A stretch of DNA of 64,000 bases. It comes from an uncultured Bdellovibrionales bacterium. Lineage in GTDB: Bacteria; Bdellovibrionota_C; UBA2361; SZUA-149. Of this stretch, positions 16,018 through 33,800 are shown one piece after another. Each line of letters starts with the position of its first letter. Positions within the stretch are counted from its first letter, which is position 1. The notes beneath the pieces are model-generated. The model did not search any database and was not told the origin of the DNA. It saw only the letters and a list, made by a program, of their open reading frames with translations. Both the position numbers and the translations under genes were made by a program. The DNA is taken from NCBI GenBank assembly GCA_965366815.1, contig CBDUGV010000001.1, positions 10,916-74,915 on the forward strand, read 5' to 3'.

Positions 16018-16974
16018 ATGAAATACACTTGCCACGTAGTGATGATTGTCTTGCTTCTCTATCCGGCGCTGCTGAGCGCTCAGGTAGAGCTGCCTCCCGG
16101 CACTACGGTCGACAAGAATGCCAAGGGCGATTTTTTCGACAAGCAAAAGAGAGATGCCATTTTTGACGCTTCACCAGGGGAGCTCAAAAGTGATACACAG
16201 CCTCGACCGAGGGCGACTCCTGTCCCGGTTGAAGCAACTCCGACACCGACTCCAGAAGCCGAACCAGAAGAACAGTCTTCACCACGCAGCAACCTCAAGA
16301 ATCAAATTCTCGATCGCGCTCAAAGCGATCGCGGCATGATGGACCTGCTCAATCGCTCTCGACAGATCAAGGAACAGCTCGGTGTAAATGGCTCTGACAA
16401 TAAAACTGCGGCACCAAGTAGATCGGATTTGAGAAAAATCATTGAAGGGGTTAAGGAAACTGCCGACGAAGATCCCAAAAAAAAAAACAAACGAATCGCT
16501 TTTAATGGTCCTGACCTAGGTGGATCAGAATCGAAGGAAAGCTACACGCCGAAAAGTGTTCTCAGTCTAATCGTATCCGGGGCCGATACCGAACACCTCA
16601 GTCGCCACACCCGAAAATTGAGCTGGATGGCAAAACACCGCAACGTGAAAATCGGCAATGTGTTCATTGTCGGAATGAGCACTATTGGTGCGAGTCTTTC
16701 CGATGAGAAGGGGAAAAAGCAACGTTCCCGCCGGTCGTCGAAAAAAGTATTGCCCTCTAAGGTGTGGCTCGAGAAACACTATGCAGAACTATCTGAAGCC
16801 GGGTTAGGCAACTATGAGATGGTCCAAGCCGACCGTTTGTTTGATCGGCTTGATATCAACTTTTCGCCAACCTGGGTCGTGCGGCATCTTGGAAGAGATT
16901 ATCTTTTTGAAGGATACAATGATCCAGTACATTTCTTCACGAAGAAAGGAGAGTTCGTCCGTGCGGACTACTAG
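16018..16974 (+). CDS. secreted hypothetical protein, Pro/Thr/Glu-rich linker
   Basis: Signal peptide MKYTCHVVMIVLLLYPALLSAQ. Low-complexity PTPTPEAEPEE region. C-terminal globular part. Confidence 0.5.
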   Translation: MKYTCHVVMIVLLLYPALLSAQVELPPGTTVDKNAKGDFFDKQKRDAIFDASPGELKSDTQPRPRATPVPVEATPTPTPEAEPEEQSSPRSNLKNQILDRAQSDRGMMDLLNRSRQIKEQLGVNGSDNKTAAPSRSDLRKIIEGVKETADEDPKKKNKRIAFNGPDLGGSESKESYTPKSVLSLIVSGADTEHLSRHTRKLSWMAKHRNVKIGNVFIVGMSTIGASLSDEKGKKQRSRRSSKKVLPSKVWLEKHYAELSEAGLGNYEMVQADRLFDRLDINFSPTWVVRHLGRDYLFEGYNDPVHFFTKKGEFVRADY

Positions 16975-17542
16975 TCGTATATTCGCTTTGATAGCGACGC
17001 CATTGCTGCTTTCGTTCTTCACACCGCAGCAAGTTGCTGCCCAAGACTATCTACTGGATAAAAACGTAAAGATCCATCGACACGACAAGCGAACCACTCC
17101 CTACCGCTTTCCTCGTGGCGAAAAAGCTCCTGCACTGGATGGCTGGGGAATGATGTTCGAGCGCAGTGTCTGGAACCCGGAAACTCCGGAAGAAGCTCGC
17201 TTGATCAATTATGAGAAACTACCAACCTGCGAAAAGAGCGATGTCGCTCTACATGAAGTAGTTCAGTACACCAAAGGAACAGAGAAAACAGACGTTCTGT
17301 ATTACTCAAAGAGCGATCCGCTTCAACGCAAGCGAGCGGCGGAGTATCCTGCCCTCAAGATCGCCTACGAGCCGGCCCTGATGCGAGACAGCTCGACAAA
17401 CCAAGCTGAGTACTGGCAGATGTTTGCCCGTTTTATACAAATAGACTGCCTCCCCACCCGCTTTCGCTTTACCTACGTTGGCAGCCAACGCTACATGGAG
17501 TATCGCTACGGCGACGCCGTATGGGAGCCAACGTCGAAATAG
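16961..17542 (+). CDS. secreted hypothetical protein
   Basis: GTG at 16961 gives signal peptide MRTTSRIFALIATPLLLSFFTPQQVAAQ. Track start 16814 would overlap the previous gene. Start overlaps the upstream stop. Confidence 0.45.
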   Translation: MRTTSRIFALIATPLLLSFFTPQQVAAQDYLLDKNVKIHRHDKRTTPYRFPRGEKAPALDGWGMMFERSVWNPETPEEARLINYEKLPTCEKSDVALHEVVQYTKGTEKTDVLYYSKSDPLQRKRAAEYPALKIAYEPALMRDSSTNQAEYWQMFARFIQIDCLPTRFRFTYVGSQRYMEYRYGDAVWEPTSK

Positions 17543-17555
17543 AGCTAGCCCGTGA

Positions 17556-20009
17556 TCACTTCCCCCGCTTTGCTCGAACGAGCAGAATCACTGAAATCAA
17601 TGTCACTGCGTAGCCAAGCCAGGTTGAAACATGGCTAAACAAAGAATAGCGCAACGTCGCTTCCGTCGTCGTCGGAGCATAGAATATCCGCTCACCGGAG
17701 CCGCGATAGACTCGGCCCTTCTCGGCGGTCCAATAGGGGAAATAGCTATAATTTATGCGATAGAGTTGTCCTGGCGTAAGGTGCTTCAGATCTATTTCTT
17801 GATTTCTTGCTCGCCAACTAAATAGCGGGGTTTTGGCGGCAACCCCTGGTTCTGGACCAACGAGTGGAAATAACTTACTGGCGATACGAACTTCGTGAGC
17901 AAGATATTTCTCGAGACTGTTGTACTCATCCAGCTCAATATTGTGTTGATACCAGACTGAGTAATGATCGATGAGGTATGGATTCTCATAATTAATTGGT
18001 ATGAGCGCCAGTCTCCCATTCGTCGCAAGGCTTGGAAACAAAGTCCGCAATCGCCGCTCTGTGATTGCACCGTTGACCACTATACCCACAGCAGCTTTGG
18101 GCAGATTCATGCCTGGTTTGACTTCCAGCAGTTCGAACCGTGCCCCCAAGCTTTCTCGGGCGTAGAGAAAAAACTCAAAAAAATGAAATGGTACATTTCC
18201 CTTCAAATCCAAGTAGAGGATAACTCGCTTTTGCACCGCCTCAATACGGGGACTGGCCGACTCTGCGATTCTCACAATTGCGTAGGGTCCAATCTCCGTG
18301 ATCGGCTCTAGAGCTAGATCTTTGATTTTTTGCGTGACCTCCTTTTTGCCAATCACCAGATGACTCACGCCAAACTCGCGCAGCTGCTGGGCTTTGTAGC
18401 GGTCGCTCAATTCTGCTCCGTCAACGAACAACAGGGGAATATGGTATCCAGAGACACCAAGCAAACGAGCAGAAGCAACGGGCATTCGATAGGCAAGCGA
18501 GCTTTGAATGAACAAACCATTGAGCGTCTCCTTGCCAAGCTCCTTCTGCAATCTCGACTCCATATAATGAGCTGAGAGAAAGGGAAACTCTTTGTAATCA
18601 GAGAAGTAGCCAAACAATACTCTATCGACATTCTCTTGTTTTCGAAGATAGGCCAATACTGTACGAGCATCTTCGAGATGCTTGCGATCCTTGTGTTCGA
18701 GAATGAGCGGACGCTCGTAATGAGGAAAAAGCACATTCGATGCGATCGAGAGTAGACAAACGAGAACTATAATACTTTCACGAATCTCGCTTCGCTGCCG
18801 ATTGGCAAACCAAACAAGCGGCACGACAGCACAGATCACCGTTCCCAGCAGAAAGAGGTACCCGTAAAATCGATAATAGTGAAATCCAATTGGCAGACTG
18901 GTTGCAACAAATCCGCTCGAGAAAATCAGTAACCCCAGCAGGAGGCTCAGCCCGAGCGTGGAGAACAGACGGCATTTTTGAAGCACTGAACTGCAAATCG
19001 CGGTCGCAATGAGAATCAGTACCAGTAGGTTGGTAATTTCGATGCCCTCGAATCGCCCACCGAGCCAAGCTCGAGCCGTCCTCAACAGACCATAGAGCGG
19101 ATAACGGAAGAATATTTCAAGAAAATCACCAGCGGGTCGGTATATATCCTGCCCCAGATACTGTGGAGAAAACCAAAAGAAAGGAACTATCCAAAAACCC
19201 GCTAGACCAATCGCCAAAAAATGTGATTTCAGGATCAACGCTCGGCGCTCTGGGTAGCGGCAATAGACAACGAGCGCGATAAAAAGCGAGCAGGCCGCGG
19301 TCAAAGAATGCGTAATGAAAAGGAAAAAATACGCCAGGCTAGTCGTCCGTTTGTATCTGGCACCGTATCGCGCCAAACGCAGCAAAGCCCCCACATGCAC
19401 AAGAAGGAAATGCCAGCCGAGCCCCTGAGAAAAAAGACCTACGTTGAACAGTGCAGCACCGCCTATTCCAAACCATTGTCGATCGTGGTTGAGAAACCAA
19501 AAACCCAATGCGCAGACCAAGACGGCCAGAAGCCAATCGTAGCATTCAATCAAGTCCTTCTTTTCCTCAAACAACTCGACAGCCAAAGCCCGGGCAAGGT
19601 AGCGCATTGAAAACGGTAGAAACGCGCAACAACTGAGAAGCACAAGATGAGATGCGAGACGGACCGGTTCCGCCGAACAAAGCGCAAGCGGAAATGCGAG
19701 AATCGCTGTGAGAAGATGTGCGAAAAAAGCATAGAACTGAAAAGCGGGCCAGCCACTAAACCAGGAAGGATCGTAGAATCGCACTCGAAATGAGAGTAAC
19801 TGGTCGACGAGGCGTTCGGTAATCGCAATATGGCCTGGAAGATCTACAGAAGCGACAGGATTCGAAGTGAAATAGGTTCCGTACCAGTAGAAAATACAAA
19901 GGGCAAAACAGGAAATAATGCAGTCACCAGCCCTAAGGATGAAGGTGCGCGTCTCGCTGTAGCGAAGCTCAAATAGCCTAGTTTGAGATATATAGCGAAG
20001 GCTGGACAT
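17556..20009 (-). CDS. large polytopic membrane protein with C-terminal soluble domain (GT-C-like? function unknown)
   Basis: 817 aa. More than 10 hydrophobic helices in the first 450 aa, then a soluble domain. No confident motif. Confidence 0.5.
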   Translation of the reverse strand: MSSLRYISQTRLFELRYSETRTFILRAGDCIISCFALCIFYWYGTYFTSNPVASVDLPGHIAITERLVDQLLSFRVRFYDPSWFSGWPAFQFYAFFAHLLTAILAFPLALCSAEPVRLASHLVLLSCCAFLPFSMRYLARALAVELFEEKKDLIECYDWLLAVLVCALGFWFLNHDRQWFGIGGAALFNVGLFSQGLGWHFLLVHVGALLRLARYGARYKRTTSLAYFFLFITHSLTAACSLFIALVVYCRYPERRALILKSHFLAIGLAGFWIVPFFWFSPQYLGQDIYRPAGDFLEIFFRYPLYGLLRTARAWLGGRFEGIEITNLLVLILIATAICSSVLQKCRLFSTLGLSLLLGLLIFSSGFVATSLPIGFHYYRFYGYLFLLGTVICAVVPLVWFANRQRSEIRESIIVLVCLLSIASNVLFPHYERPLILEHKDRKHLEDARTVLAYLRKQENVDRVLFGYFSDYKEFPFLSAHYMESRLQKELGKETLNGLFIQSSLAYRMPVASARLLGVSGYHIPLLFVDGAELSDRYKAQQLREFGVSHLVIGKKEVTQKIKDLALEPITEIGPYAIVRIAESASPRIEAVQKRVILYLDLKGNVPFHFFEFFLYARESLGARFELLEVKPGMNLPKAAVGIVVNGAITERRLRTLFPSLATNGRLALIPINYENPYLIDHYSVWYQHNIELDEYNSLEKYLAHEVRIASKLFPLVGPEPGVAAKTPLFSWRARNQEIDLKHLTPGQLYRINYSYFPYWTAEKGRVYRGSGERIFYAPTTTEATLRYSLFSHVSTWLGYAVTLISVILLVRAKRGK

Positions 20010-20132: not shown

Positions 20133-20570
20133 ATGAAATTAAGTACTGACGCCCCGGAACAGCATTTGGCAATCCTCTGTGTTGCAGGATTTTGCGTATT
20201 TGTAAGTGTGATTAGCGCTTTCACCTCTGGAGACGAGGCCGATCAGGATGTTGCCAATCAGCAAGCGAGCTACTTGGAAAGCGGTGTTACCAAGTACGAC
20301 AACCCCCAACTTACCTGGTGGGAAAAACTGTTTTGTCGGGGATATCAACGTTCTCAGGGCTGCGGCTATCGCTTTATGCATCCACTCAAACAGAAGTTTG
20401 AAGACTTGGGAATTGAAGTACAAGAAGCTCCGGCAAACAAAGTCAATGCCGTAGATTACAACGGCTCACTTCCGACGAATCGTGCCTTTTCAGGACGTAT
20501 CAAGGTTGAGCACCGACATTGGGAACAGCCCGCCTGGGTTAAGAGAAACTCTACTGCACAAGAGCGCTAG
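20133..20570 (+). CDS. hypothetical protein with N-terminal membrane anchor
   Basis: ORF only; one hydrophobic helix. Confidence 0.3.
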   Translation: MKLSTDAPEQHLAILCVAGFCVFVSVISAFTSGDEADQDVANQQASYLESGVTKYDNPQLTWWEKLFCRGYQRSQGCGYRFMHPLKQKFEDLGIEVQEAPANKVNAVDYNGSLPTNRAFSGRIKVEHRHWEQPAWVKRNSTAQER

Positions 20571-21093: not shown

Positions 21094-22917
21094 TTGCGTT
21101 TTTCGAGCGGAACACGAATTGCAGAGCGCTATGAAGTAGTAAAATTGCTCGGGAGCGGGACCGTTGGAACAGTCGTGCATGTACTCGATCGAAGCCTCGA
21201 TCAACAATCGCTCGCCTTAAAGATTCTACACGCTGATTTGATAGGGAACGATACTATCTTACAAAGGTTCCAAAGTGAGGTGATGTTCGCTCGTCAGCTC
21301 GCGCACCCGCACATCGTGCGAGTCTACGATTTTGAGCAGAAAGACAACTATTACTTCCTTTCCATGGAGTATGTGGTGGGCTGTGACCTCGATGTAATCA
21401 TCCGAAGTTATCAAAGCCGCAAATTGCCGCTCCAGGAGGCGCTCTTCTTGCTCAGTCAAATTGCCGAAGGGCTTAGTTTTGCGCATCAGAAAAACATCGT
21501 TCATCGAGATCTCAAACCGCACAATATCTTGATCGATAGCACGGGCTTAGCAAAGCTCACAGATTTCGGACTCGCTCACAGTCTTGAGTCCTCGCTCGGG
21601 CTCACTCGTACGGGACAAATGCCAGGTACGCCCCTCTACATGGCTCCGGAACAGTTTCTCGGTGCACCTCCAACCCCAAAGGTCGATATATACGCCTTTG
21701 GAATACTCGCCTTTGAACTCCTTACCGGCAGCCCCCCTTTTGTAAGCGAGAATTTCATCGCTATCGGTGAACAGCACAGGAGCGAGCCACTGCCAATTGA
21801 GCTGCTGCGACAGAATGCAGTTCCGGATTGGCTTGAGCAGCTGATTGTTGATTGCACCAAGAAAGATCCGGCGGACCGCGTGCAATCGATGAGGCATGTG
21901 TTAGGCAGGCTCAGTGACCGAGCCACTATCGACGTTGGACAAAGCAAGACGATATTGCGGACGGTGGTTCGGCGGCGCCAGCGCAGCTACAATTTGCTGA
22001 GTACAAGAAACTTGAAAGTATTGCGGCTTGGCTGGTGCTTGTTTGTGCTCTCCCTCTTCTGCCAACTCACCCTTTTCGAAAAGAATGCGAATCTTCGATT
22101 GGCATCGTACCTATATCAAATTGAACAGCAGCTCGGATACGATATGTCCATTCTCCGCAAGGGCATCGGTTTTGGGAAATTTTCCATAGGATCGGATGCA
22201 GATCTCTTCGCTGCTGCACAGTTTGGAATTTTTGAAGAACTGGAGGCCCTCATTCGAGCTGGTATGAACCCGAACATCAGAGACAAAGAAGGCAATACCT
22301 TACTCCACCACGCAGCTCGACTCCCCGCTAGAGTTCCGCAATATCTAATCAGCGATGAGGGCGTGGCCGATCCGAATCTGCAGAACAAAAACGGAGAGAC
22401 ACCACTGCTCGTTGCAGTAAAGGCTGGAAACAAACGAATCGTTGATGAGTTTCTAATGAACAATGCGTCTCCTACGATAGCGGATAAAGAGGGCAACACC
22501 CCTTTGCTTTGGGCAGTGTCTGTTGGCGATTTGGCAATTGTAGAATCGCTCGTCAAACCGATGATGAGATATCGACCGCTGAGAGGAACCAAAATATACA
22601 CACCTACACAAAGAACCAGAGAGGGGCTTACTGCGCTACACCTCGCTGTTGAAGCCGGTCGAGTCGCAATTCTCAAAATTTTGATCAACGAATTCGCTGA
22701 TGTGAATGAAAGAGATTCTCAGGGTCAAACTGCGATCATGCGGCTTGTGCAACAAGCACCTACGGACAATACCATTCAAACACTCGAATTGCTTTTGCAG
22801 CACAATGCCAGTCTAAGTGCGCGAGATGATGAGGGGCTCACTGCATTTCAGTATGCCGATGCCAATTCAAACCAATATTGGGCCGATAGATTGCGCCAAC
22901 ACCGAGCAGATTCCTGA
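21094..22917 (+). CDS. Ser/Thr protein kinase with predicted TM helix and C-terminal ankyrin repeats
   Basis: Hanks motifs LGSGTVGTV, HRDLKPHNILID, DFGLA, APE. Hydrophobic segment LGWCLFVLSLFCQLTLF. At least 5 ankyrin repeats (GNTLLHHAARL, GETPLLVAVKAGN, GNTPLLWAVSVGD, GLTALHLAVEAG...). TTG start. Confidence 0.85.
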   Translation: MRFSSGTRIAERYEVVKLLGSGTVGTVVHVLDRSLDQQSLALKILHADLIGNDTILQRFQSEVMFARQLAHPHIVRVYDFEQKDNYYFLSMEYVVGCDLDVIIRSYQSRKLPLQEALFLLSQIAEGLSFAHQKNIVHRDLKPHNILIDSTGLAKLTDFGLAHSLESSLGLTRTGQMPGTPLYMAPEQFLGAPPTPKVDIYAFGILAFELLTGSPPFVSENFIAIGEQHRSEPLPIELLRQNAVPDWLEQLIVDCTKKDPADRVQSMRHVLGRLSDRATIDVGQSKTILRTVVRRRQRSYNLLSTRNLKVLRLGWCLFVLSLFCQLTLFEKNANLRLASYLYQIEQQLGYDMSILRKGIGFGKFSIGSDADLFAAAQFGIFEELEALIRAGMNPNIRDKEGNTLLHHAARLPARVPQYLISDEGVADPNLQNKNGETPLLVAVKAGNKRIVDEFLMNNASPTIADKEGNTPLLWAVSVGDLAIVESLVKPMMRYRPLRGTKIYTPTQRTREGLTALHLAVEAGRVAILKILINEFADVNERDSQGQTAIMRLVQQAPTDNTIQTLELLLQHNASLSARDDEGLTAFQYADANSNQYWADRLRQHRADS

Positions 22918-22925
22918 GCGAGCTA

Positions 22926-24671
22926 ATGGAAGGAGCATACCAACAGTTTCTCAAACCAAATACGCTCCTCGACGGGAGGTATCAACTGGTCTCTGCCTTG
23001 GGCTCTGGAGCAACGGGAACTGTGTTTCTCGCAGAGGATCAGAATCTCAACTCCGAAGCGCTCGCAATAAAGATTCTTCACCCGCACTTGTTGCTGAGTG
23101 ACGAGAGCTACAGTCGATTCCGTGCGGAAACGCGAATCACCATGCGCTTGTCTCACCCCAATATACTCACTTGTTTCGGAATGGGACAGCACGGCAATCA
23201 GATCAGTTTCTTAAAAATGGAGTACTGTGATGGAACTTCCTTGGCTGATTTGATCGATAGGAAACCTCAGCATCGAAAGCTAACAGAGCTCATTTGCATC
23301 CTACGAGATATCGCTTCAGCGTTAGAGTATGCACATTTGCAAGGAGTAATTCACCGAGATTTGAAGCCGGAAAATATTCTGATCGGCGAAGATAGAGAAG
23401 TGCGAGTCGCGGACTTCGGTATTGCTCAGATAGTCCGGCAAGAGGCGCGTTTGACGGGCCAGGGCGATATACTTGGAACTCCTTATTATATGTCACCAGA
23501 GCAGTTGCGCTCGGAACTCATTGACGGCAGGTCAGACATGTACTCGTTTGGCATCATGGCCTACGAGGTTATTACCGGACAACTGCCCTTTACTGCCGAT
23601 TCCTTCTGGGAACTTGCCGAATTACATATCTCGGCCCCATTGCCAGTTGAGCCTCTAGAAAGGGTGCATACCCCGCCCTGGTTAATCGACTTAGTAGCCG
23701 GCTGCGTGGAAAAGGATCGTCACAAGCGTTTGAACTCCATGTCGGAAATCTACAATATTCTAGAACAACACTGTCCCCTCGAGCAGAGCCCGGATCGGGA
23801 TCGAAAGCGAAGCCCTAGTTTTTTAGAGCAGCCAAGCCAGGAAGAGAGTTCCAAATTCGTTTTTACTTTTCAGAAAAATTACGATCGAGTGGTGAGGTAC
23901 GCCTTTTCCGTTTTCATCCTATTGGTTTTATTTCTGGCACCTCGCATCAACAGCTCGGTCGATTGGCGCTACAATATCGTAGCGTTTCGAATAGAGCGGA
24001 TTTTCGGAGTGAAGCTGCCATGGGTTCGAAAACTGATGCACGTACCTGCCCACATTTCCTATCCGGAAAGCATGTTTGGATCTGGACCCGAGTTTAAGCA
24101 CGAAACGCTATCTCTCTTAAAAGCCGGATACGAAGTCAATGTCTACAGTGAATCACGCGGTGAATACCCGATTCATTATGTAGTGTACAGGTTCGCAGAT
24201 TGTCAGATAGTACGGTATCTCGTCGAATACGGCGCTCTGGTAAACGTAAGCAATCGAGCCGGGCAAACTCCCCTCTTCATCGCTGTTTTGAGGGGTGAAC
24301 CCGAAACCGTTGAATTCTTGCTCTCAGAAAAAGCCGACCCGAATATCGCGACACTAGAAGGATTAGTCCCCCTCAGCCAGGCCGCAAAGAGTTCTCGGTA
24401 CGATATTGCTCGCAGTCTGCTAGAGCAAAGTCGAGTTCCAATAGACGTGAATCGAGCGGATCTTCAGAATCAAACTCCACTCCACTTTGCAGTGCCAAGC
24501 GGCCACCGAAAACTGGTCGAGTTGCTTTTAACGCACGGAGCAGACCCTACCTTGGTCAACGATGATGGCGATAGTCCACTGACCCTGGCGAAGAGCCTTC
24601 AGCCGAGAAAACGCTATGCCGCAGTAATTGAACTATTGGAGAAACAGAGTGTACCGGAAGACGCTCGGTAG
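22926..24671 (+). CDS. Ser/Thr protein kinase with predicted TM helix and C-terminal ankyrin repeats (paralog)
   Basis: HRDLKPENILIG, DFGIA, SPEQ. Hydrophobic FSVFILLVLFLAP. Ankyrin repeats (GQTPLFIAVLRGE, NQTPLHFAVPSGH...). 8 bp after the previous kinase gene. Confidence 0.85.
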   Translation: MEGAYQQFLKPNTLLDGRYQLVSALGSGATGTVFLAEDQNLNSEALAIKILHPHLLLSDESYSRFRAETRITMRLSHPNILTCFGMGQHGNQISFLKMEYCDGTSLADLIDRKPQHRKLTELICILRDIASALEYAHLQGVIHRDLKPENILIGEDREVRVADFGIAQIVRQEARLTGQGDILGTPYYMSPEQLRSELIDGRSDMYSFGIMAYEVITGQLPFTADSFWELAELHISAPLPVEPLERVHTPPWLIDLVAGCVEKDRHKRLNSMSEIYNILEQHCPLEQSPDRDRKRSPSFLEQPSQEESSKFVFTFQKNYDRVVRYAFSVFILLVLFLAPRINSSVDWRYNIVAFRIERIFGVKLPWVRKLMHVPAHISYPESMFGSGPEFKHETLSLLKAGYEVNVYSESRGEYPIHYVVYRFADCQIVRYLVEYGALVNVSNRAGQTPLFIAVLRGEPETVEFLLSEKADPNIATLEGLVPLSQAAKSSRYDIARSLLEQSRVPIDVNRADLQNQTPLHFAVPSGHRKLVELLLTHGADPTLVNDDGDSPLTLAKSLQPRKRYAAVIELLEKQSVPEDAR

Positions 24672-24672: not shown

Positions 24673-25182
24673 TTAGAAATTTCCGATATCAAAAGGATCT
24701 GGCGGTCCAGCCAGGTTGTCATCAAAAGGTACTGCACCCCCACCACCGGCTCCCGCACCACCAGCTTGGGCTCCAGCACCCTGGGCTTGTTGCGCACCTG
24801 CCTGCTGAGTTCCACAACCGAAATCCCCAAAGTAGAGGCTCACGCCAACTGCAACCGTGCCAGCTCCGCAAGCAGTCATCACCGCAGCCTTGGCGTTCTT
24901 GAAATCACCTAAGGCAGCAGAACAGATCGCCATAAAGCCGCTTGCGGCCAAAATAAGCGCTCCAAGCTCTCCTTCCATTAAGAAATAGATATCGCAGATA
25001 ACCGAGCGAATAGCTCCGTTGGCAAATTGCGGCGCGTTGTAGGCGTATTGCCAAGGTGCCTGCGCTTGCGCGTGGGCAGAATCTGGAAAGCCGAAACCAA
25101 GCAGCAAGGCGCAGACTATGAGCTGCGCTCCCAATACGGGCGTGCTCTGAAGATGCAGAGTTCGAGAGTGCTGGTAGTTCAT
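24673..25182 (-). CDS. VirB2/TrbC-like pilin-like protein with Gly/Ala/Gln-rich linker and conserved C-terminal tail (paralog 5)
   Basis: Core ICDIYFLMEGELGALILAASGFMAICSAALGDFKNAK. Linker QQAGAQQAQGAGAQAGGAGAGGGG. Tail AVPFDDNLAGPPDPFDIGNF nearly identical to paralog 4 at DNA level. Confidence 0.6.
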   Translation of the reverse strand: MNYQHSRTLHLQSTPVLGAQLIVCALLLGFGFPDSAHAQAQAPWQYAYNAPQFANGAIRSVICDIYFLMEGELGALILAASGFMAICSAALGDFKNAKAAVMTACGAGTVAVGVSLYFGDFGCGTQQAGAQQAQGAGAQAGGAGAGGGGAVPFDDNLAGPPDPFDIGNF

Positions 25183-25188
25183 AACGCC

Positions 25189-25695
25189 TTAGAAATTCCC
25201 GATATCGAAGGGATCTGGCGGTCCAGCCAAATTGTCATCAAAAGGCACCGGGCCACCACCGCCCGCACCAGCACCGCCAGCACCGCCAGCACCACCGGCA
25301 CCACCGGCACCACCGGCACCACCACCGCCATTTCCGGTAGCACCACCGTTGGCCGCGCCTTGGGAACAGGTAGCAGCAGCATCTTCGAAATAAAGACTCA
25401 TCATTGCTGAAATCGAAAATGCGCCGATTCCAACGATCACAAAACTATAACTGGCTCGGAAATTTCCCATTGCCGCAGAAACGACGGCACCGACTCCGGC
25501 TGCCGACATCAAGAGAGCTCCAAGACTACCTTCCATATGGGCGCAAAGCTCTTGGATTGCCCATTCGGCACTCGCAAAGGCAAAAGCCACTTCTGGAAGT
25601 GACAGACCCAGCATTAACAGTCCGAAACAGAACACGGTAACGCGATGTATGCGCCCGATTGTTCTATCTAGTTCGGCAATTCGTTTTGATTTCAT
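25189..25695 (-). CDS. VirB2/TrbC-like pilin-like protein with Gly/Ala-rich linker and conserved C-terminal tail (paralog 4)
   Basis: GAGGAGG SD. Pilin-like core GALLMSAAGVGAVVSAAMGNFRASY...LYF. Then (GGA)n-type linker and tail PVPFDDNLAGPPDPFDIGNF. Confidence 0.6.
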   Translation of the reverse strand: MKSKRIAELDRTIGRIHRVTVFCFGLLMLGLSLPEVAFAFASAEWAIQELCAHMEGSLGALLMSAAGVGAVVSAAMGNFRASYSFVIVGIGAFSISAMMSLYFEDAAATCSQGAANGGATGNGGGGAGGAGGAGGAGGAGGAGAGGGGPVPFDDNLAGPPDPFDIGNF

Positions 25696-25729
25696 TTAGA
25701 GAAAACCTCCTCACTTTGGTTCGTGCCAG

Positions 25730-26128
25730 CTAACAAGCCAACGAAGGAAACAACATTGCAACCATGTCGGGAAAGATAAACGAACCAACTGAGACGAATA
25801 TCAAAGCCCATGCTCCCTTAAAGGAACCAGCCGCAGCCGCAACAAGCGCGAGAATACCAGTAAGCGCTGTTACCATTGCACCAAAATCTTTCTTGAGAAC
25901 GTCTTCGAGAATATTACAAGCTGCGGTTTGGAAGATGCCGCCGCCTTGTTGAGCCAACGCCGGTTCGATCAATGCTGAACAAATAAGCACTGCACCAATT
26001 GCGTATAAGCCAAGCGAGAGGTTCACCTGCTGTGAACAATCGCGAACAAAACTGAAAATCTTAGAAAACCCTTTGCCCATCATGCACCACCAGTTTGCAT
26101 CGAGGAAGCTAAATGCCGTGTTGCTCAT
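25730..26128 (-). CDS. VirB2/TrbC-like pilin-like small protein (paralog 3)
   Basis: Track ORF extends to 26338 and overlaps paralog 2. ATG at 26128 with GGAG SD gives a 133 aa protein. Leader ...IEPALA-QQG. Mature ACNILEDVLKKDFGAMVTALTGILALVAAAAGSFKGAW. Confidence 0.55.
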   Translation of the reverse strand: MSNTAFSFLDANWWCMMGKGFSKIFSFVRDCSQQVNLSLGLYAIGAVLICSALIEPALAQQGGGIFQTAACNILEDVLKKDFGAMVTALTGILALVAAAAGSFKGAWALIFVSVGSFIFPDMVAMLFPSLAC

Positions 26129-26145
26129 CTCTAGCTCCGCTCGAA

Positions 26146-26535
26146 CTAGCCTCCAGAACATTGAGGAAAGAACAATGTCATATAGCCCCGTAAAATAAAC
26201 CCACCGACTGCGACCACCACACAGGCCCAAGCGGCTTTGAATCCACCCATCGCTGAAGCAATAATGGCGCCGATGCCCGCAATTGCGGTAAGCATCGCAC
26301 CAAACGTGCCATCGGCCATATCCAACACGTTGTTGCATATGGTGCCGTACTTCGCGCCGTCATACGCCAGTGCCGGTTCGACACTCACTGCGCATAAGAG
26401 CAGGGCGGCCCCTATTAGCAAGAGCGCTGTTCGCTCATCTTGTATACAGGTACGTAACCCTTTCATTTGCTGTACACCTTCACCCCGTATCTCGGACCGC
26501 CAATGATACCGATTCACCCGTATTGGTATCATCAA
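26146..26535 (-). CDS. VirB2/TrbC-like pilin-like small protein (paralog 2)
   Basis: 129 aa. Leader ...VEPALA-YDG. Mature ICNNVLDMADGTFGAMLTAIAGIGAIIASAMGGFKAAWACVVVAVGGFIL. Confidence 0.6.
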   Translation of the reverse strand: MMIPIRVNRYHWRSEIRGEGVQQMKGLRTCIQDERTALLLIGAALLLCAVSVEPALAYDGAKYGTICNNVLDMADGTFGAMLTAIAGIGAIIASAMGGFKAAWACVVVAVGGFILRGYMTLFFPQCSGG

Positions 26536-26577
26536 CGACCGTCATTGCTCACCAAGCGAAAAGATCCGCTTAGGCGA

Positions 26578-26976
26578 CTAACACGCGGCGAAAAATAGAG
26601 TAATCCACGCACGAAGAATAAATGCGCCAACCGCAACTACCACAAGAGTCCATGCCATTTTGAATCCACCAACCGCAGAAGCGATAATGGCTCCAATACC
26701 AGCACCAACCGTTATCAAGGCACCAAATGGGCCCTCAATAAATCCAAGTAGAAATCCACAAGCAGCCTGATATAGCCCGCCTCCAGTCGTATCCCCCTGC
26801 GCAAAAACTGCACCAGCAGTTCCTACACTCAACAGGAGTACACCAAGAGCAAAAAGCAATGTGTTTGCATTTCGCTCAACTGAAAGACTCAACCCGACAC
26901 AGGAGTTGCGATACAGTTTCGCTATCGCGTTTTCCTTGTAAGAACGCTCAGTCATCGTCCCACCATTCATATCCAT
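26578..26976 (-). CDS. VirB2/TrbC-like type IV secretion pilin-like small protein (paralog 1)
   Basis: 132 aa. Long leader with hydrophobic segment ending AVFA-QG. About 72-aa mature part with two hydrophobic helices. GPFGALITVGAGIGAIIASAVGGFK...VVVAVGAFIL resembles recalled A. tumefaciens VirB2 (ICTFILGPFGQSLAVLGIVAIGIS...). Recalled homology, not searched. Confidence 0.6.
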   Translation of the reverse strand: MDMNGGTMTERSYKENAIAKLYRNSCVGLSLSVERNANTLLFALGVLLLSVGTAGAVFAQGDTTGGGLYQAACGFLLGFIEGPFGALITVGAGIGAIIASAVGGFKMAWTLVVVAVGAFILRAWITLFFAAC

Positions 26977-27855: not shown

Positions 27856-30800
27856 TCAGCGAATCCCTAGCGCTCTAAGCCAAAAGGCCGGAGCATCCGA
27901 GGTGCGACAGCGTTCTGCTTTTGCTGAGTCACTGAGCTCTGCCAGCTCTTTTTGTTCCGCCTCGAACTTTCCTCCCTCGCGAAGACTGAGTAAGAGATAG
28001 TGCTTTGCCCTCGTACAGGCAACGTAGAATACCCGGCGTTCTTCGCTGTAGTACATCGCTTGTTGGTTCTCTTCGAGCAACTGCATAGTCAGCGTTTTCT
28101 TTCGGCGGTAGTCATCCGTCGGATCTTCGATCCTTACTCCAAGCATGCTGCGCCCGGAGCCATCGGGGATTTCTGATTTGATGAAATCGTGCTCCCTTCG
28201 CTGGCGACCGGCAAGAAAGGGAAGTACCACCATCGGATACTCCAAGCCCTTTGACCCGTGAATGGTGCTTAACACAATCGGATGAGAGACACTATTTGCC
28301 GTTGGCGCATCCGAACCAGCAACGCGCTCGTTGATCAGCCAATTCAGGGCATCCTGTGGATTTACACCACATTCGTTCTTTCTCTCCGCCGATGCGAGTC
28401 GGTCAATAAAGCGCTCAATATTGCCAAATGCTTCACCCTTCCCCACTGCAACATATGCTTCCCGCAATCCGGAGGTCCTCGCAATATGCTCAAGTAAGTT
28501 GGAACATGGAACCATGCGACTCAAGCGCTGCCAATCGGCCAATCTCCCTTGGACAAAGCTTAGAAGCTCGCTCGGTGAAGTGTGTTCACCTTCGAGAGTA
28601 ATCCAAGCCCCGTTTAACTCGGCGTAGAGGTCTACAATGTGCCGATCGCTGAGGCCCATTAAAGGAGAGCGCAAAACTCCAACTAAGGCAATCGCATCGT
28701 CGGGGTGAACGAGGAGTCGCAACACATGCTCGAGCTGGGCAATCTCCGCTAGTTCATAGAAGCCACTACTGTGCGAAATACTAAACTCCAGTTTCTCCGC
28801 CTCCAGAGCATTCGCAACTCGCGAAAGCTGCCGCACAGTCCGAGTAAGAACTGCAATTTGCGGAGAACCACTGTGGAGCGAAAGCTCCGGGTACTGTGAA
28901 GAGCGACCATCTGTATCGAAAGAAGACAACAGCTGCTTGAGGTGCGCAGCGAGGAATTTCGCTTCACCCGTATCGCTATTTTCTTGGCGACCAGCCCCCT
29001 TTTCGTAAGGTTTCCACAACTGTTGAACCTTCGGCTCACCTGCAGTATTCACTGGTGTTTTCGCGTGCATCTGCTGGGCCCGAAGCGCAGTTGGAGAGAG
29101 CGCTTTTGGAACCTTGCACGCTTCGTCTGTAGCAAAATCTACCGCAAAAAGCTTCTCAAACAAGTCGTTCACGAAATCGACGATCTCAGGCTGCGAACGG
29201 TAATTATCGTCCAGGCTCAGCGAAATTCCGCCAACCCGCTCAAGCTGCTCTCGAGCCAAGTCAAACACTCGGCTATCCCCGCCGCGAAAACCGTAGATCG
29301 ACTGCTGGGCATCGCCGACGAGAAAGAGTGTATCTGCCGCGAGCTCCGTGCCGCAGAGGCCAGCGATCTTCGATAGAAGCTCCCATTGCTGGCGATCGGT
29401 ATCCTGAAACTCATCGACCATGATGTGATGAAATTGCTGCTGGAGGCGTTGGCAAACTGCTGCCTGCCGGGCTCGATACCGGGGCTCCACCTCTTGGCAC
29501 AGCATCCGATGGGCCCCAGAAATCAGATCGTCGAAATCTACTAGCTGTTTGCCGGCCTTAAGCCGCTGGTAGCGTTGGCGCACCATAGCTGCAAGCTGCG
29601 CAACACCTTGGACGAGCTGCCAAGCCTGTCGCTCTGCTACATCTGAAAGCGTGAATACTGCGCGCTGCTCCTGTAATGTCCCGAGTGTATCTCGTACATC
29701 GTTCATAAAATTGCGAGGCGTGTGCTTACTTTTACGCTTCGCAAATCCTTGATTCTCCTGAATATAAAGCCGAAGCGATGCTATCTGCGAGAGCCAGTCG
29801 GTATCGTCGGCTTTCAGTAGCTTCTCAACTTCCGCCTCGAGGTATCGATGTGCAGCCAGCTGATCTGCTGGCATCTCCCCACCCTTCCCCGCCAACCATT
29901 CTGCAAGGTCTTGAAGCCAAAGGGCGAAGTATGCAGCGTGCTCTTGTTGGAGTTCGCCGCGTTTTCGCTTTTGATACTCGGAGACTAGCTCAGTTAGGTA
30001 GCTGCGTTTAGACTCATCGAGTACCTCATTGAGATCGTCTAGGAGTTGTGGACTCAAGGCAAGCCGTGCGAGTTGTTGTTGCAACGTTCGGGCATGCACG
30101 CCGAAATCCAATACGCGCTCGGCAGTTTCGCGCCCATCTTCTGAACGCACCACTGCTCTCACCGCTGCGCCAAGTTGAGTCTGCTGCTCGCTAGAGGTAA
30201 GAATTCGATTAAAGTGCTCGAGTCCGGAAAGCCGTAAATCCATTGCAACAATCCTCGTGGCCAACCCGTGGATTGTGCTTATCTGGGCCTGGGAAACAGC
30301 GGCTTTTGCCTGAGTAAACCGACCTCGCTCAACATCGCTCAGCACCGATCCCCGATAGCTATTGCTTGCAAGGACCCCGCTCAAGGCCTGCTCAACTCGT
30401 TGGCGAATCTCCTCGGCTGCCTTTTCGGTAAAAGTGACGGCCAACAAGGACTCAATTGACTCGCCGCGGTGAATCAGCTCAAGCACGCGGGCTCGCAGCA
30501 CTGCGGTTTTCCCTGAACCAGCACCAGCGCTAAGACATATCGGCTGCTCCAATCGACATGCCGCTTGCTGCTCCGCTGAGAGCCGAAGCTCACGAGAAGA
30601 ATGCTGGTTCTGAAGAAAGTCCCTCGGCACAAGAGATCCAGCACGGATTTCAGCCAAAGGCTCCTTGCTAGTCGCTTCTTCGCTGGTCGCTTCTTCTCTG
30701 GATTTCCACTTCTTTTCAAGCAGCACTTCATCACGGCAATGAAGCGCTGCATGCTGCGAATAGCGATCGATATCGGCCTCAAGCGGCTGCAGGAACGAGC

Positions 30801-33800
30801 CTTCGGCCAGCATCCAAAGAAGCGATCGCACATGGGCCAGAGTTTGTTCTACGCGACGCTCAACCGCCTCGCTCGAAAATGAACTTCCCCGTGCCTCAAG
30901 TGCTAAAAGCTCCCGACAGACTCCTTTTCGCGGCGATGGCATATCGAGATCGCTGCGGTTGGGCTGCGACAAATCTATGATCCCCCCTCTCGCGGGCAGT
31001 GTCTCAAAGCATTGGCGTAGGGCAGCTGCATAGAGAGGCAACTGCAAGCTCTTTTGCGAATCTATATCTCGCAAAGTAGCTGCCCCCCCGGTCTTATAGT
31101 CCCATATCGCCAGGGGCGTACCGCTGCCTTGATCTACGACAATGTGCCGATCGATACGGTCAATGCATCCAGTCACTTCAAGGCTAAGCCCAATGTCAGC
31201 CTCTGGCTGAACGAGCAACGCTGGTGCATCTTCGCTGAGCCCAAATCGGTATTCGACCCGTTCTGGAACAGTTTGGAGAAAGTCGCGCTGGTAAATCAGG
31301 GCGGCAAACAACGGCCCTTGTCTCCCCTGAACTGCCGATGGTCGCTTGTTCGACTGCAGACCCGCTAAGAGCCAATTCTTTCGGCTGCGGAGCAAGGGGT
31401 GAGAATCCCAATCGAGAGGATGATCGGCAAACGCAGCCATGGCTATTGCGATCATCCTCTTGCAGGCCTGCTCGAGGTCTCCTTGCAAGGACTCGGGCGA
31501 AAAGCCTTGGCCTGGATCAAAGAATCGCTCAAGGCAGCGATGGACAATCGTTCCAACATACAGAGGTATCTCCGACTCAAAGCCGCTGGAGCGTGGTTGG
31601 AGACCTAAGAGTTCTTGGAATAAAAACTGGAGGGGATTCTCGGAAAGCAATTCTAGCGATGAAACAGAAAGCCGAAGCGAAAGAGCTCCCTCTTGCTGTT
31701 CTAGCCCGGCATTCTTCGCCCTAATTCGACAGAGCCGCATCGAACTTTCAGGCCCTAATTGGCCGTCATATTCGGTAAAATGGGGCGAAAGGCGTCCGCG
31801 CAGTAGCGCCAGGGCCCGCGGACAGGGTTCTACCGGAGCAAGACTTCCATCAGTGGCGATCACCTCGCTATCCGCATCTGCGAGTAACCTGAGTTCATTT
31901 CTTGCGAGCTGATCTGGAAATAATGAGGCGAGATCCGTGAGAAAGGTCATCGGTAAGACCTCATTCTGCTCATCGCGATCTGGCACGCTAAAGACGAGCT
32001 CTTTCGCATTCCGGCATAGCTGCGCTAGGAGCCAATGACTCTCTTGGACGCGGGAGACAGCCCGACCCCGTCTATTCAACTGGTTGGTCACCACATCGAG
32101 CTCGCCATTCTCCGGGGCTGAGCCGCCTTGGATCCAAGCGTTGAGTTCGCGGGCACTGCATCCCAAAAGTACAACCGCAGGGCTAAAGATCGTCCGCCCA
32201 TCGAGAAACTCAGTTAGGCGCACCGCATCGGGCTGGAAATCTACCTGCAGCTGAATCCGATCAACATACTCTAGAAGATGGCTGACAAAACGAGCTAAAC
32301 TCACCCGTTCGAAATCAGCAGCGGCATAGCGAAAGACCTGTTGCACTTGGCGTGTTGCTCGAACCAGTTGCTGGAGGGGCGCTTGCGGATTTGAGGAAGA
32401 GCTACGCAAAGTCGATAGACGAAGGCGTATTCGATTGTAGTACTGCCGAATAGCAGCAGCATACTGCGGTGCCGTTTCATTTGCTGACTGTAATTTCGCG
32501 GCATACTCAGCTTCCTGCTCGAAAATCGCCAAACTAGCTATACCGCTGAGCAGAAGCTCTACTTCTCGGCGAACAGAGTCTCGCAGCTCGCGGCCGCCAC
32601 GAGTTTCTTGATATGAACGCGGACTGTCGCAGCAGTACCGCAATCGACCGACCAATTGCTGGAGCAGATGCTCGCTCCCAGCGCTTTCTTCCGATGGAAG
32701 GAGTTCGAGCGCGACTATGCCCTGCTCTATACAAGAAAATAACGGTCGAACGCCGGCAACCTGGGCTACTAAGAAGTCCTCAACACTGCGATTTCCTCGC
32801 TGTTTCTGTAGCTGCGGATGCTCGAGTATCGGATGAACTACCTCACGATGCCGCTTTAAGAAGCGCTTGGTCGACGCAGTAGCAAGCTTTGGCGAAGCAG
32901 CAAACGGGTGGCTAAAAAGAGCCTCGGCGCTCGCAAGATTCTGCTCTTGGAGCCAAGAAATCAGTTTTCGAAGGAAATCAGCCGGTAGCGTGCCAGCTAA
33001 GGCGGTGCCCTTGGTAATTTGCAACGGGATATTGAGACGATCAAACTCAGCTTCCATTAAGGAGCGATATGGTTCAACGTCAAACGCCAAGATGTGATAC
33101 TCAGCTGGTTGCGCCCTGCCTGCGGTTCGAGCTGCGGCTATCGCCTCAGCCAAGCGGCGGGCTTCGTCACGGCGCTCAGCAGAACGCCAAATAGCAACGC
33201 CGTCCAAGGACGCCCCCAGGTCAGTTTCCCCCAATAGCTTAGAGTCGATCAATTGATCGACAAGCAGGGCTCGATCGGGAACGGTACTGGGGTGTTGCTC
33301 GACTGCCGCGATTTTAGCGCTTGAAGTGCTAAGGAAATACCGCAGCGATTGGAGATAGGCTTCCGAAGGCTTTGGAAATTGTACGCTATCGCTCGCAGTG
33401 CTTTGATCGACTTTTTGCGATCCCCTCGCTGGTTCTGCCTCAAAAAGTGATGTTTGAACCGCTGTGGATGAAGAGCTGCGATTGGCTGTTTCAGTGGTCT
33501 TCGTATCAGAATTTCTCGTATGATCACGATACTCGTTTTGGCAAACGACTGCATCGACAGAGACTCGGAACTCGCAAAGATGAGAGAGTCTATCATAGAC
33601 ACTTTGCTCTAGCGGAAACACCTGCATTGGCCGAAACAAGAGTATGGTGTCTACGTCAATCGTCTCTACACGGTTGAGCGCGACGAGCAACTGTTCGAGC
33701 ACGGCTGGCCCATCGTAGGCGCCGACGAACGATTGTACTTCCTGATAGGCAGCTATCAGCGAAATGAGTTCTTCTCGACGGTCGAGAATAACATTGCCGT

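What the first reader, a model, noticed from the sequence alone, without database searches (positions are those of the whole stretch)
24673..25330. Two pilin-like paralogs carry Gly/Ala linkers and a conserved 20-aa C-terminal tail, with near-identical 3' DNA ends and 9-bp tandem repeats
Paralogs 4 and 5 extend beyond the pilin core with a poly-Gly/Ala(/Gln) linker and end in (P/A)VPFDDNLAGPPDPFDIGNF. The last roughly 58 bp of the two genes (24676-24735 vs 25192-25250) differ at only about 5 positions although the cores are diverged, suggesting gene conversion or recent duplication of the tail. In paralog 4 the linker is encoded by in-frame tandem 9-bp units (GCACCGCCA / GCACCACCG, about 25268-25330), a classic substrate for slipped-strand length variation. 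VirB2/TrbC pilins are normally C-terminally trimmed or cyclised, so the conserved tail could be a processing/sorting signal or a tip-adhesin module.
Basis: seen in the sequence. Interest (0 to 1): 0.55.

Follow-up and report, generated by a model that had tools for sequence, protein, structure and literature searches.

The report
Pilin-like proteins with tethered acidic tails
The two genes are the last members of a conserved five-to-six-gene operon of distant VirB2/TrbC-pilin-like membrane proteins found in uncultured Bdellovibrionota; their floppy glycine-rich spacer plus acidic, phenylalanine-ending tail is an old, selected feature of this family, probably a tethered docking peptide outside the cytoplasm, and no secretion machinery lies nearby.

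Summary
par4 (25189-25695, -) and par5 (24673-25182, -) each have a signal peptide, a two-helix hairpin core, a Gly/Ala(/Gln) linker and the tail (P/A)VPFDDNLAGPPDPFDIGNF. The par4 linker holds the strongest tandem repeat in the window (9 bp x 7.9). A second strain lacks exactly one unit.

The tail's DNA similarity is not recent conversion. The 19 shared codons carry 6 synonymous and 0 non-synonymous differences, so selection keeps the peptide.

The five genes form a chromosomal operon conserved in uncultured Bdellovibrionota MAGs (5-6 paralogs in fixed order). A conserved small bitopic protein, here called c1, accompanies it in 14 of 19 loci. Only the last two paralogs carry a disordered low-complexity linker and an acidic tail. 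That tail usually ends in Phe, with the motif FD[PDGN]x-hydrophobic ... [DE]xF.

Cores group by orthology and tails by genome. The two tails of a genome co-vary.

Homology to VirB2/TrbC is weak but coherent. No T4SS gene lies in the 64 kb window or in any flank examined.

Best reading: a tethered extracytoplasmic docking peptide. Rival: a cleaved propeptide, as in RP4 TrbC. I class it as a new variant of a known kind, of moderate-to-high interest.

The parts
26578..26976 (-). par1: first VirB2/TrbC-like paralog (132 aa). Signal peptide, two-helix hairpin, ends ...FFAAC. No tail.
   Evidence: ORF; family HMM E=8e-40; identical protein in the collection
26146..26535 (-). par2: second paralog (129-aa ORF; gene callers start it at MKGL, 106 aa). 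Ends ...FFPQCSGG. Gives the best Pfam TrbC match in the window.
   Evidence: (PF04956 E=3.3e-4, 21.2 bits against a cut-off of 27.9)
25730..26161 (-). par3: third paralog, start uncertain (ATG at 26083 or the gene-caller start near 26161; the ORF runs to 26338). Ends ...FPSLAC. No tail.
   Evidence: (TrbC E=2.7e-3)
25189..25695 (-). par4 (168 aa). Signal peptide aa 1-39 (AFA|F). Hairpin core aa 40-110 with Cys51 and Cys110. Linker aa 111-148. Tail aa 149-168.
   Evidence: AF2 helices 3-32, 41-75, 79-115, then disorder
25252..25365 (-). par4 low-complexity Gly/Ala/Asn linker (38 aa), predicted disordered.
   Evidence: pLDDT below 50 for residues 118-148
25254..25324 (-). In-frame 9-bp tandem array (7.9 copies) encoding (Gly-Gly-Ala)n. 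One unit (25268-25276) is absent in strain L001.
25192..25251 (-). par4 C-terminal tail PVPFDDNLAGPPDPFDIGNF.
24673..25182 (-). par5 (169 aa). Signal peptide aa 1-38 (AHA|Q). Core with Cys63 and Cys123. Linker aa 124-149. Tail aa 150-169.
24736..24813 (-). par5 Gly/Ala/Gln linker (26 aa).
   Evidence: weak 15-bp repeat at 24737-24766
24676..24735 (-). par5 C-terminal tail AVPFDDNLAGPPDPFDIGNF.
20133..20570 (+). c1: conserved 145-aa bitopic protein (N-terminal TM; basic ectodomain motif NPQ(L/M)xW(Y/W)E(R/K)xFCRGYQRSxxCxYRxxHP). It lies next to the array in 14 of 19 related loci, usually just upstream. Here the two kinase genes separate it from the array. Candidate partner.
   Evidence: no Pfam, NCBIfam, PADLOC or PHROGs match

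Best explanation
SHOWN. par4 and par5 are the fifth and sixth-type members of a chromosomal operon restricted, as far as sampled, to uncultured Bdellovibrionota. The operon holds 5-6 distinct, orthologously conserved paralogs in fixed order. Each is a small protein built like a VirB2/TrbC propilin: a signal peptide, then two hydrophobic helices joined by a short basic loop. A small bitopic protein, c1, lies next to the array in most loci, usually just upstream. Only the last two paralogs carry a low-complexity, predicted-disordered spacer of very variable length. That spacer is followed by an acidic peptide with a bipartite motif, (F/Y)-D-[PDGN]-x-hydrophobic ... [DE]-x-F-COOH. The window's PFDDNL...DPFDIGNF is a local version of it.

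INFERRED, topology. The n-region of the signal peptide and the Lys/Arg loop are cytoplasmic, so the linker and tail are extracytoplasmic, in the periplasm or on a filament surface.

INFERRED, mechanism. The tail is a tethered short linear motif. A flexible leash presents a C-terminal acidic peptide whose terminal Phe and carboxylate dock into a pocket of one shared partner. This resembles the way the Gly-rich linker and acidic ...DDDIPF tip of bacterial SSB work in the cytoplasm (my own knowledge; an analogy, not homology). Because both paralogs must fit the same partner, the two tails change together between lineages. Within a lineage they are held by strong purifying selection. The basic periplasmic domain of c1 is the most obvious candidate partner.

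The leash itself is under little length constraint. It turns over by replication slippage, so the 9-bp array and its one-unit strain polymorphism are a by-product, not a switch.

A Cys before helix 1 and a Cys just after helix 2 probably form a disulfide that staples the two ends of the core. This would be a non-enzymatic counterpart of pilin head-to-tail cyclisation. The tail begins right after that staple.
For: Operon and clade:
- 20 genome loci were found. 15 carry Bdellovibrionales, Bdellovibrionota or Oligoflexia titles; the other 5 are titled only 'bacterium', 'Pseudomonadota' or 'Proteobacteria'.
- Fixed gene order, with tails only on the last two genes. Syntenic metagenome loci L005-L010 agree.
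- c1 lies next to the array in 14 of 19 loci.

Family size and tails:
- 576 representative proteins at E<=1e-3.
- By a rough regex-and-offset heuristic, 64 proteins carry an extension of at least 20 aa and 34 of those end in Phe; the tally includes three near-identical copies of par5.
- The bipartite motif aligns across 30+ proteins.

Selection: 0 non-synonymous and 6 synonymous differences in 19 tail codons, against dN 0.57 in the core. The par5 tail and linker are identical in all the contigs and cluster members seen.

Co-variation:
- Cores group by orthology, tails by genome.
- The terminal residues of the two tails of a genome are more alike than random genome pairings. For the last 2, 3, 4 and 6 residues, 0 of 20,000 shuffles reached the observed score. 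Examples: MELF/NDLF, AEDF/PFDF, AGVF/EGIF, IGNF/IGNF. Even the non-Phe lineage L029 shares (S/D)RSW in both.

Disorder: pLDDT below 50 over residues 118-148 of par4.

Partner candidate: the c1 ectodomain is basic, with pI of 8.0 or higher in 12 of 13 homologues, and each tail has net charge -5.

Paired Cys: 91 members have both, 11 neither, 1 only one, of 103. The N-side Cys aligns with the Cys of true VirB2.

Slippage: a one-unit indel between strains that are 99.7% identical. Lineage-specific repeat units occur in relatives, e.g. (GGGGT)n with period 15 in L008.
Against: - No binding partner was shown. The c1 idea rests on synteny and charge alone, and its single-sequence model was useless (pLDDT 45).
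- Topology is inferred from sequence rules, not measured.
- The co-variation test does not correct for phylogeny. Old gene conversion followed by selection would give the same pattern.
- Some members end in ...DPFxxLD...NPFE or ...SRSW..., not Phe, so the terminal-Phe pocket cannot be universal.
- RP4 TrbC shows that C-terminal extensions of such pilins can simply be cut off (PMC13434634).
Confidence: 0.45

Rival explanations
1. The linker plus tail is a C-terminal propeptide. A periplasmic C-terminal-processing protease recognises the conserved acidic, Phe-ending terminus. The extension is removed during maturation of these two pilin-like subunits, as in RP4 TrbC, and the mature protein is only the hairpin core.
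For: RP4 TrbC loses 27 C-terminal residues to an unknown host protease and 4 more to TraF. R27 TrhA is also cut at the C-terminus (PMC13434634). The extension starts right after the conserved post-helix-2 Cys, where paralogs 1-3 simply end. Linker length and sequence are unconstrained, as expected for a discarded segment. Hydrophobic C-terminal residues are typical ligands of the PDZ domains of such proteases (my own knowledge).
Against: No TraF/S26-type or Ctp/Prc-type peptidase lies in the window or in the conserved neighbourhood. Only two of the six paralogs would need the propeptide. The tail changes between lineages while staying matched between the two paralogs; a general housekeeping protease would be expected to demand a more uniform signal. 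A 20-90 aa leash is unnecessary for a cleavage signal.
Confidence: 0.25
2. These are pilins of a T4SS encoded elsewhere in the genome, in split loci as in Rickettsiales. The tails decorate the outside of a pilus as a prey- or host-binding adhesin, and the 9-bp repeats give strain-to-strain surface variation.
For: Remote VirB2/TrbC homology. Anaplasma keeps 8-15 tandem virB2 paralogs apart from most vir genes, with variability near an N-terminal Cys and near the C-terminus (PMC3556328). In cyclic pilins the joined termini lie on the pilus surface (abstract of PMC13031515, seen). There is a repeat-number polymorphism between strains. In strain L001 the SNPs of the array cluster in the par4 linker and tail.
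Against: No T4SS gene lies in the 64 kb window, in 10 kb beyond its right end, or in up to 10 kb of flank in the related loci examined. Paralog number and order are fixed and orthologous across the clade, not strain-variable. The tail is under strong purifying selection and is matched between the two paralogs, the opposite of diversifying surface variation. The polymorphism seen changes only 3 of 38 linker residues.
Confidence: 0.2
3. The shared tail is just the footprint of a gene-conversion tract between neighbouring paralogs in low-complexity DNA, with no function of its own.
For: Tails are more alike within a genome than between orthologues. The flanking Gly-codon repeats could promote recombination.
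Against: 6 synonymous against 0 non-synonymous differences in the tail. The same class of acidic, Phe-ending motif sits on the same two operon positions across many related lineages, where the two tails are not DNA-similar; L005 shows no blastn match above chance.
Confidence: 0.05

Closest known systems
VirB2/TrbC T4SS propilins (Pfam PF04956), e.g. A. tumefaciens VirB2 and RP4 TrbC
   Same: Size. A long signal peptide ending in A-x-A. Two hydrophobic helices joined by a short basic loop. A Cys and a G-x-F-G motif before helix 1 that align in register. The only family hit in Pfam and the only PDB sequence hit. TrbC also has a C-terminal extension beyond the core (PMC13434634).
   Different: All Pfam scores listed for individual proteins, including the window's, are below the gathering score. 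No plasmid homologue by tblastn. No VirB1, VirB3-B11 or TraF genes nearby. Five to six fixed paralogs rather than one gene. A long disordered leash with an acidic, mostly Phe-ending tip. A conserved Cys pair rather than a known cyclase.
Tandem virB2 paralog arrays of Anaplasmataceae (split rvh-type T4SS)
   Same: Many tandem VirB2-like genes in the chromosome, away from most secretion genes. Variability is concentrated near an N-terminal Cys and near the C-terminus (PMC3556328).
   Different: There the copy number (8-15) and sequence vary between strains, and the array sits next to virB4-2. Here the number and order are conserved across a whole clade, each position has its own orthologue, and no virB4 is adjacent. 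No leash-and-tip extension is described in the passages of PMC3556328 read here.
SSB intrinsically disordered linker plus acidic C-terminal tip (...DFDDDIPF); mechanistic analogy only, from my own knowledge
   Same: A folded core, then a Gly/Gln/Pro-rich low-complexity linker of variable length, then a short acidic peptide ending in Phe that docks to partner proteins.
   Different: No homology. SSB is cytoplasmic and soluble. These proteins are membrane hairpins with the tail predicted to lie outside the cytoplasm.
TIGR03745 / DUF2976 ICE membrane proteins (pilin-like proteins of integrating conjugative elements)
   Same: par5 gives weak matches (PF11190 E=0.006; TIGR03745 E=0.014) over helix 1 and the loop.
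   Different: Far below the cut-offs (15-17 bits against 28-52). The locus shows no integrating-conjugative-element context.

Membership tests
TrbC/VirB2 pilin family (PF04956) | Sequence match to the family model at or above its gathering score (27.9 bits) | tested here: not met
   Window proteins: par2 21.2 bits, par3 18.3, par1 12.5, par4 and par5 none. Family level: 31 of 103 members hit at E<=0.01, best E = 2.3e-7. By extrapolation from the bits/E-value pairs that is about 31-32 bits, but I did not identify that member. Against true VirB2, hhalign gives P = 0.0042 and 0.021. The PDB profile search finds only VirB2 8cue, E = 3.1.
TrbC/VirB2 pilin family (PF04956) | Propilin architecture: long signal peptide, two hydrophobic helices, short basic cytoplasmic loop | tested here: met
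   A-x-A sites, helices and the FK/FR loop can be read in the sequences. AF2 helices at 3-32, 41-75 and 79-115.
TrbC/VirB2 pilin family (PF04956) | Encoded with T4SS machinery (VirB3/B4/B6/B8-B11 or Trb equivalents) | tested here: not met
   No such Pfam family among about 45 window ORFs, in 10 large flanking ORFs of related loci, in the gene tables of L001-L010, or 10 kb beyond the right end of the window. The rest of the genome could not be seen.
TrbC/VirB2 pilin family (PF04956) | C-terminal trimming and/or head-to-tail cyclisation; polymerisation into a pilus | not testable with these tools
   Needs mass spectrometry or cryo-EM. No TraF-like peptidase was found nearby.
Anaplasmataceae-type variable virB2 arrays | Copy number and sequence of paralogs vary between strains; linkage to virB4-2 | tested here: not met
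   5-6 paralogs in the same order, with position-specific orthologues, in the 19 loci compared. Strains of this species are identical in par1-3 and par5. No virB4.
Slipped-strand contingency (phase-variable) locus | Tandem repeat whose copy-number change shifts the reading frame or promoter spacing | tested here: not met
   The unit is 9 bp and in frame, inside the coding region. The observed polymorphism removes 3 aa.
Slipped-strand contingency (phase-variable) locus | Repeat number differs among close strains | tested here: met
   L001 lacks one unit. Three assemblies break in the array. This is only one intact second allele, from a short-read assembly.
C-terminal sorting signals (PEP-CTERM, LPXTG, GlyGly-CTERM type) | Short motif followed by a hydrophobic helix and a basic cluster at the C-terminus | tested here: not met
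   The tail is acidic (net -5), has no hydrophobic helix and ends ...IGNF. No Pfam hit.

The most novel reading that the evidence does not exclude
The c1 gene plus the 5-6 VirB2-like paralogs form a self-contained, T4SS-independent envelope assembly specific to a Bdellovibrionota clade. It would be a hetero-oligomeric ring or filament of disulfide-stapled 'pseudo-cyclic' pilin-like hairpins. Two of its subunits would reach across the periplasm on disordered leashes and latch onto a co-evolving partner through their acidic C-terminal peptides. This would be a new kind of cell-envelope machine derived from conjugative pilins.
Probability: 0.25. Interest if true: 0.8.

Novelty: new variant of a known kind. 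Interest (0 to 1): 0.6.

Why it matters
VirB2/TrbC pilins are known as single, small, often cyclised subunits encoded inside T4SS operons. Here a distant branch of that fold has become a conserved chromosomal operon of six specialised paralogs in an uncultured Bdellovibrionota clade, with no secretion genes in sight. Two of the paralogs have a leash-and-tip architecture so far associated with cytoplasmic hub proteins such as SSB.

If the tails dock to a shared partner, this gives a concrete, testable handle on an unknown envelope structure: a 6-20 residue peptide, a candidate receptor (c1), and natural co-variation across many genomes. The phylum is best known for bacterial predators, though the lifestyle of these MAGs was not examined.

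The conserved Cys pair suggests a disulfide alternative to enzymatic pilin cyclisation.

For genome scanning there is a cautionary point. Near-identical 3' ends of neighbouring paralogs can be produced by peptide-level selection alone. Counting synonymous against non-synonymous differences separates that from recent conversion.

Tried and rejected
- Word-indexed protein searches with the linker included were swamped by Gly/Ala words. The index-free search and a tail-less query worked.
- Foldseek of the par4 model against the PDB gave only non-significant helical matches. A helix hairpin is not discriminating.
- tblastn of par2 against 72,556 plasmids found nothing.
- NCBIfam, PADLOC and PHROGs gave no credible match for any paralog or for c1; only two far-sub-threshold NCBIfam hits to par5. 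I therefore dropped the defence-system and phage-protein ideas.
- The exact tail (17 aa) and its last 9 residues, back-translated, have no match in JGI metagenome contigs. This version of the tail is species-specific, and I obtained no further alleles of the repeat.
The single-sequence model was unusable (pLDDT 45).
- The family alignment A5 was too diverse for the genome scan; the tighter A6 worked.
- I tried to identify the family member with the best TrbC score and failed in two batches.
- Walking beyond the left end of the window failed because the protein is not on record.
- Eukaryotic-type DPF/NPF endocytic motifs in the tail: rejected. The nearest relative (L005) has no DPF, and the motif class is better described as acidic plus terminal Phe.
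- OMP beta-signal and PEP-CTERM-type sorting signals: rejected on sequence pattern.
- Promoter and terminator scans around the array were not above background in any informative way.
- No literature on this family was found.
Full report
1. THE OBSERVATION

Five tandem genes on the minus strand occupy 24673-26976. They are par1 26578-26976, par2 26146-26535, par3 25730 to about 26161, par4 25189-25695 and par5 24673-25182.

All five share a signal peptide ending in A-x-A, a Cys-containing segment, a Gly-rich hydrophobic helix, a short loop with Lys or Arg, a second hydrophobic helix, and a Cys.

par1-3 end at or within four residues of that second Cys. par4 and par5 continue with a Gly/Ala/Asn (par4) or Gly/Ala/Gln (par5) stretch and then (P/A)VPFDDNLAGPPDPFDIGNF.

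A degenerate back-translation of the tail matches only these two sites, with none expected by chance.

The par4 linker holds a 9-bp, 7.9-copy in-frame array at 25254-25324. It is the strongest tandem repeat in the window.

2. SELECTION RATHER THAN RECENT CONVERSION

The 19 identical tail codons differ at 6 of 57 nt. All six differences are synonymous: pS 0.47, dS about 0.75, dN 0. The hairpin core has pS 0.66 and dN 0.57.

So the DNA similarity of the 3' ends is what a fixed peptide allows. With only about 12.7 synonymous sites the estimate is rough, but a recent copy event is not indicated.

3. STRAIN VARIATION

The species occurs in a few metagenome assemblies.

One contig, L001, is 99.685% identical to the window over 15.9 kb. 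It differs in par4 by loss of exactly one GGTGCTGGC unit (168 to 165 aa) and by three SNPs. One SNP changes the tail from FDDNL to FDDKL.

All three SNPs of the 2.3-kb array fall in the par4 linker and tail. Three other assemblies end inside the repeat.

The par5 tail and linker are invariant in all copies seen.

The slippage idea is therefore supported by one intact second allele. The effect is a 3-aa change in a 38-aa disordered linker.

4. WHAT THE GENES ARE

Sequence evidence:
- Pfam gives only sub-threshold TrbC/VirB2 matches in the window (par2 E = 3.3e-4).
- 31 of 103 family members hit that model, and no other family hits more than one member.
- A family profile finds only A. tumefaciens VirB2 among all PDB sequences (E = 3.1).
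- I fetched true virB2 genes from plasmids. Profile-profile alignment to them gives P = 0.004 and 0.02. The signal-peptide site, the Cys, the G-x-F-G motif, helix 1 and the basic loop align in register.
- The AF2 model of par4 is a signal helix plus a helical hairpin, followed by disorder at residues 118-148.

This is a distant VirB2/TrbC-like family. It does not meet Pfam's membership threshold.

5. THE FAMILY AND ITS OPERON

An index-free HMMER search finds 576 representative proteins at E<=1e-3.

Twenty loci in species-representative genomes were found. Fifteen are MAGs titled Bdellovibrionales, Bdellovibrionota or Oligoflexia. Five carry only generic titles.

Across these and the metagenome loci L005-L010 the architecture is constant:
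- a 122-162-aa bitopic protein, c1, with the motif WYERxFCRGYQRSxxCSYRxLHP, lies next to the array in 14 of 19 loci, usually just upstream;
- then come 5-6 paralogs in fixed order, each position with its own orthologues.

The neighbourhood is core chromosome: NTP-transferase, a giant PD-(D/E)XK-UvrD helicase, selA/selB, ispA and parAB.

No T4SS component appears in the 64 kb window, 10 kb beyond its right end, or in the flanks of related loci.

In the window and in L005, two Ser/Thr-kinase-ankyrin genes are inserted between the array and c1.

6. THE TAIL IS A FAMILY TRAIT

Only the last two operon positions carry extensions.

By a rough heuristic, 64 of the proteins held carry an extension of at least 20 aa, and 34 of those end in Phe.

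The extensions begin with lineage-specific low-complexity sequence of 20-90 aa. Examples are GGA, GGGGT and GN repeats, and Ser/Thr/Ala-rich stretches.

They end in an acidic peptide. Aligned, it shows (F/Y)D[PDGN]x-hydrophobic, then 4-8 residues, then [DE]x[LTDEP]F. Examples are GFDNAVAEIADTF, DFDGGFNDFGEEF and QFDPTTAETADQF. The window has PFDDNLAGPPDPFDIGNF.

7. CO-VARIATION

The window's par4 core is 71% identical to its L005 orthologue but 33% identical to par5. The last 20 residues are 95% identical between par4 and par5 and at most 47% identical to either L005 tail. The two L005 tails are 69% alike.

Over 15 genomes, the ends of the two tails of one genome are much more alike than random pairings. 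For the last 2-6 residues, 0 of 20,000 shuffles reached the observed score.

This test does not correct for phylogeny. What it shows is that the two tails change together along the tree.

8. MECHANISM

The n-region of the signal peptide and the basic loop place the C-terminus outside the cytoplasm, whether or not the signal peptide is cleaved.

The features are a disordered leash of free length, a short acidic peptide (usually ending in Phe) under strong purifying selection, and matched evolution of the two tails. Together they are best explained by a tethered docking motif for one shared, co-evolving extracytoplasmic partner.

c1 is a candidate. It is syntenic, it has a periplasmic domain with two invariant Cys, and its pI is 8.0 or higher in 12 of 13 homologues, against a tail net charge of -5. 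This is inference only.

The main rival is a discarded propeptide. RP4 TrbC loses 27 + 4 C-terminal residues (PMC13434634). A pilus-surface adhesin on a T4SS encoded elsewhere, as in the split loci of Anaplasma (PMC3556328), remains possible. It fits the purifying selection and the fixed paralog set poorly.

9. AN ADDITIONAL FEATURE

The Cys before helix 1 and the Cys after helix 2 occur together in 91 of 103 members. Both are absent in 11, and only one is present in 1.

Both lie on the extracytoplasmic side. A disulfide that ties the two ends of the core would mimic pilin cyclisation without a cyclase. This is inferred, not shown.

10. VERDICT

It is a defining feature of two members of an undescribed, clade-specific VirB2-like operon.

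I found no literature on it.

Function is unproven. The mechanism offered is testable with multimer modelling, whole-genome T4SS scans and mass spectrometry.

Noticed in passing
window 39893-40647: About ten iteron-like direct repeats (roughly (A/C)TCGTGTTTCGAAC...AAG; TRF reports 22 bp x 2.6 at 40401-40459) fill the gap between parA (39125-39892, -) and a gene matching Pfam 'Replication initiator protein A' (40648-42054, +). The parB-parA-RPA arrangement recurs in L007. This is a plasmid-style origin module in what looks like core chromosome.
   Followed up: partly
window 20133-20570 (+): c1, a conserved small bitopic protein with invariant P-x-Q-H near the N-terminus and an NP...W...CRG..R...C.....HP ectodomain. 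It lies next to the pilin-like array in 14 of 19 loci. It matches no known family, and its structure prediction failed.
   Followed up: partly
window 21094-24671 (+): Two tandem Ser/Thr protein kinases with C-terminal ankyrin repeats, convergent with the array. They lie between the array and c1 only in this species and in L005; in most other loci c1 directly abuts the array.
   Followed up: partly
window 27856-34188 (-), about 30691: A giant 2110-aa PD-(D/E)XK nuclease plus UvrD-helicase fusion (AddAB-like). Strain L001 carries a 15-bp in-frame insertion, one extra 'EEATx' unit (EEATGEEATSEEATS against EEATSEEATS). This is a second slippage polymorphism in the same 16 kb.
   Followed up: partly
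window 25189-25365 compared with L001: All three SNPs that distinguish strain L001 within the five-gene array fall in the par4 linker and tail (25357, 25327, 25231; the last changes Asn to Lys in the tail). The other 15.7 kb carry 23 SNPs.
   Followed up: partly
par1-par5; family alignment A5: Paired cysteines, one before helix 1 and one just after helix 2. Both are present in 91 of 103 family members, neither in 11, only one in 1. The Cys-less members have termini like the extra second-position paralog of six-gene arrays. The N-side Cys aligns with the Cys of true VirB2.
   Followed up: partly
L011, L014, L015, L019-L022, L027 (second gene of the array): Six-gene arrays contain an extra paralog of about 200 aa (ending ...FFGTNYxAY...) that is absent from the window's five-gene array.
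   Followed up: no
L029 10569-11793 and 18212-20483: One MAG has a different tail type on both tailed paralogs (...SRSWAALAESGS and ...DRSWNTSADDSD, no terminal Phe). It is the only locus with a non-basic c1 ectodomain (pI 6.3), and it has a second group of three family genes 7 kb away on the opposite strand.
   Followed up: no
window 16018-20009: Two secreted proteins without a Pfam family (318 and 242 aa; the two longest ORFs overlap at 16814-16974, so one start is probably miscalled) and an 817-aa polytopic membrane protein without a family. All three are conserved near the array in several relatives (clusters c7, c8 and c13).
   Followed up: no
window 12323-15655; L022 3054-5351: A selenocysteine machinery (selA, selB) sits beside the locus in several relatives. 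L022 encodes a pyridine-nucleotide-disulfide oxidoreductase fused to AIR-synthase-related (AIRS) domains, possibly SelD-like.
   Followed up: no
window 52524-53420 (+): A PEP-CTERM-tailed protein, implying an exosortase system in this organism.
   Followed up: no
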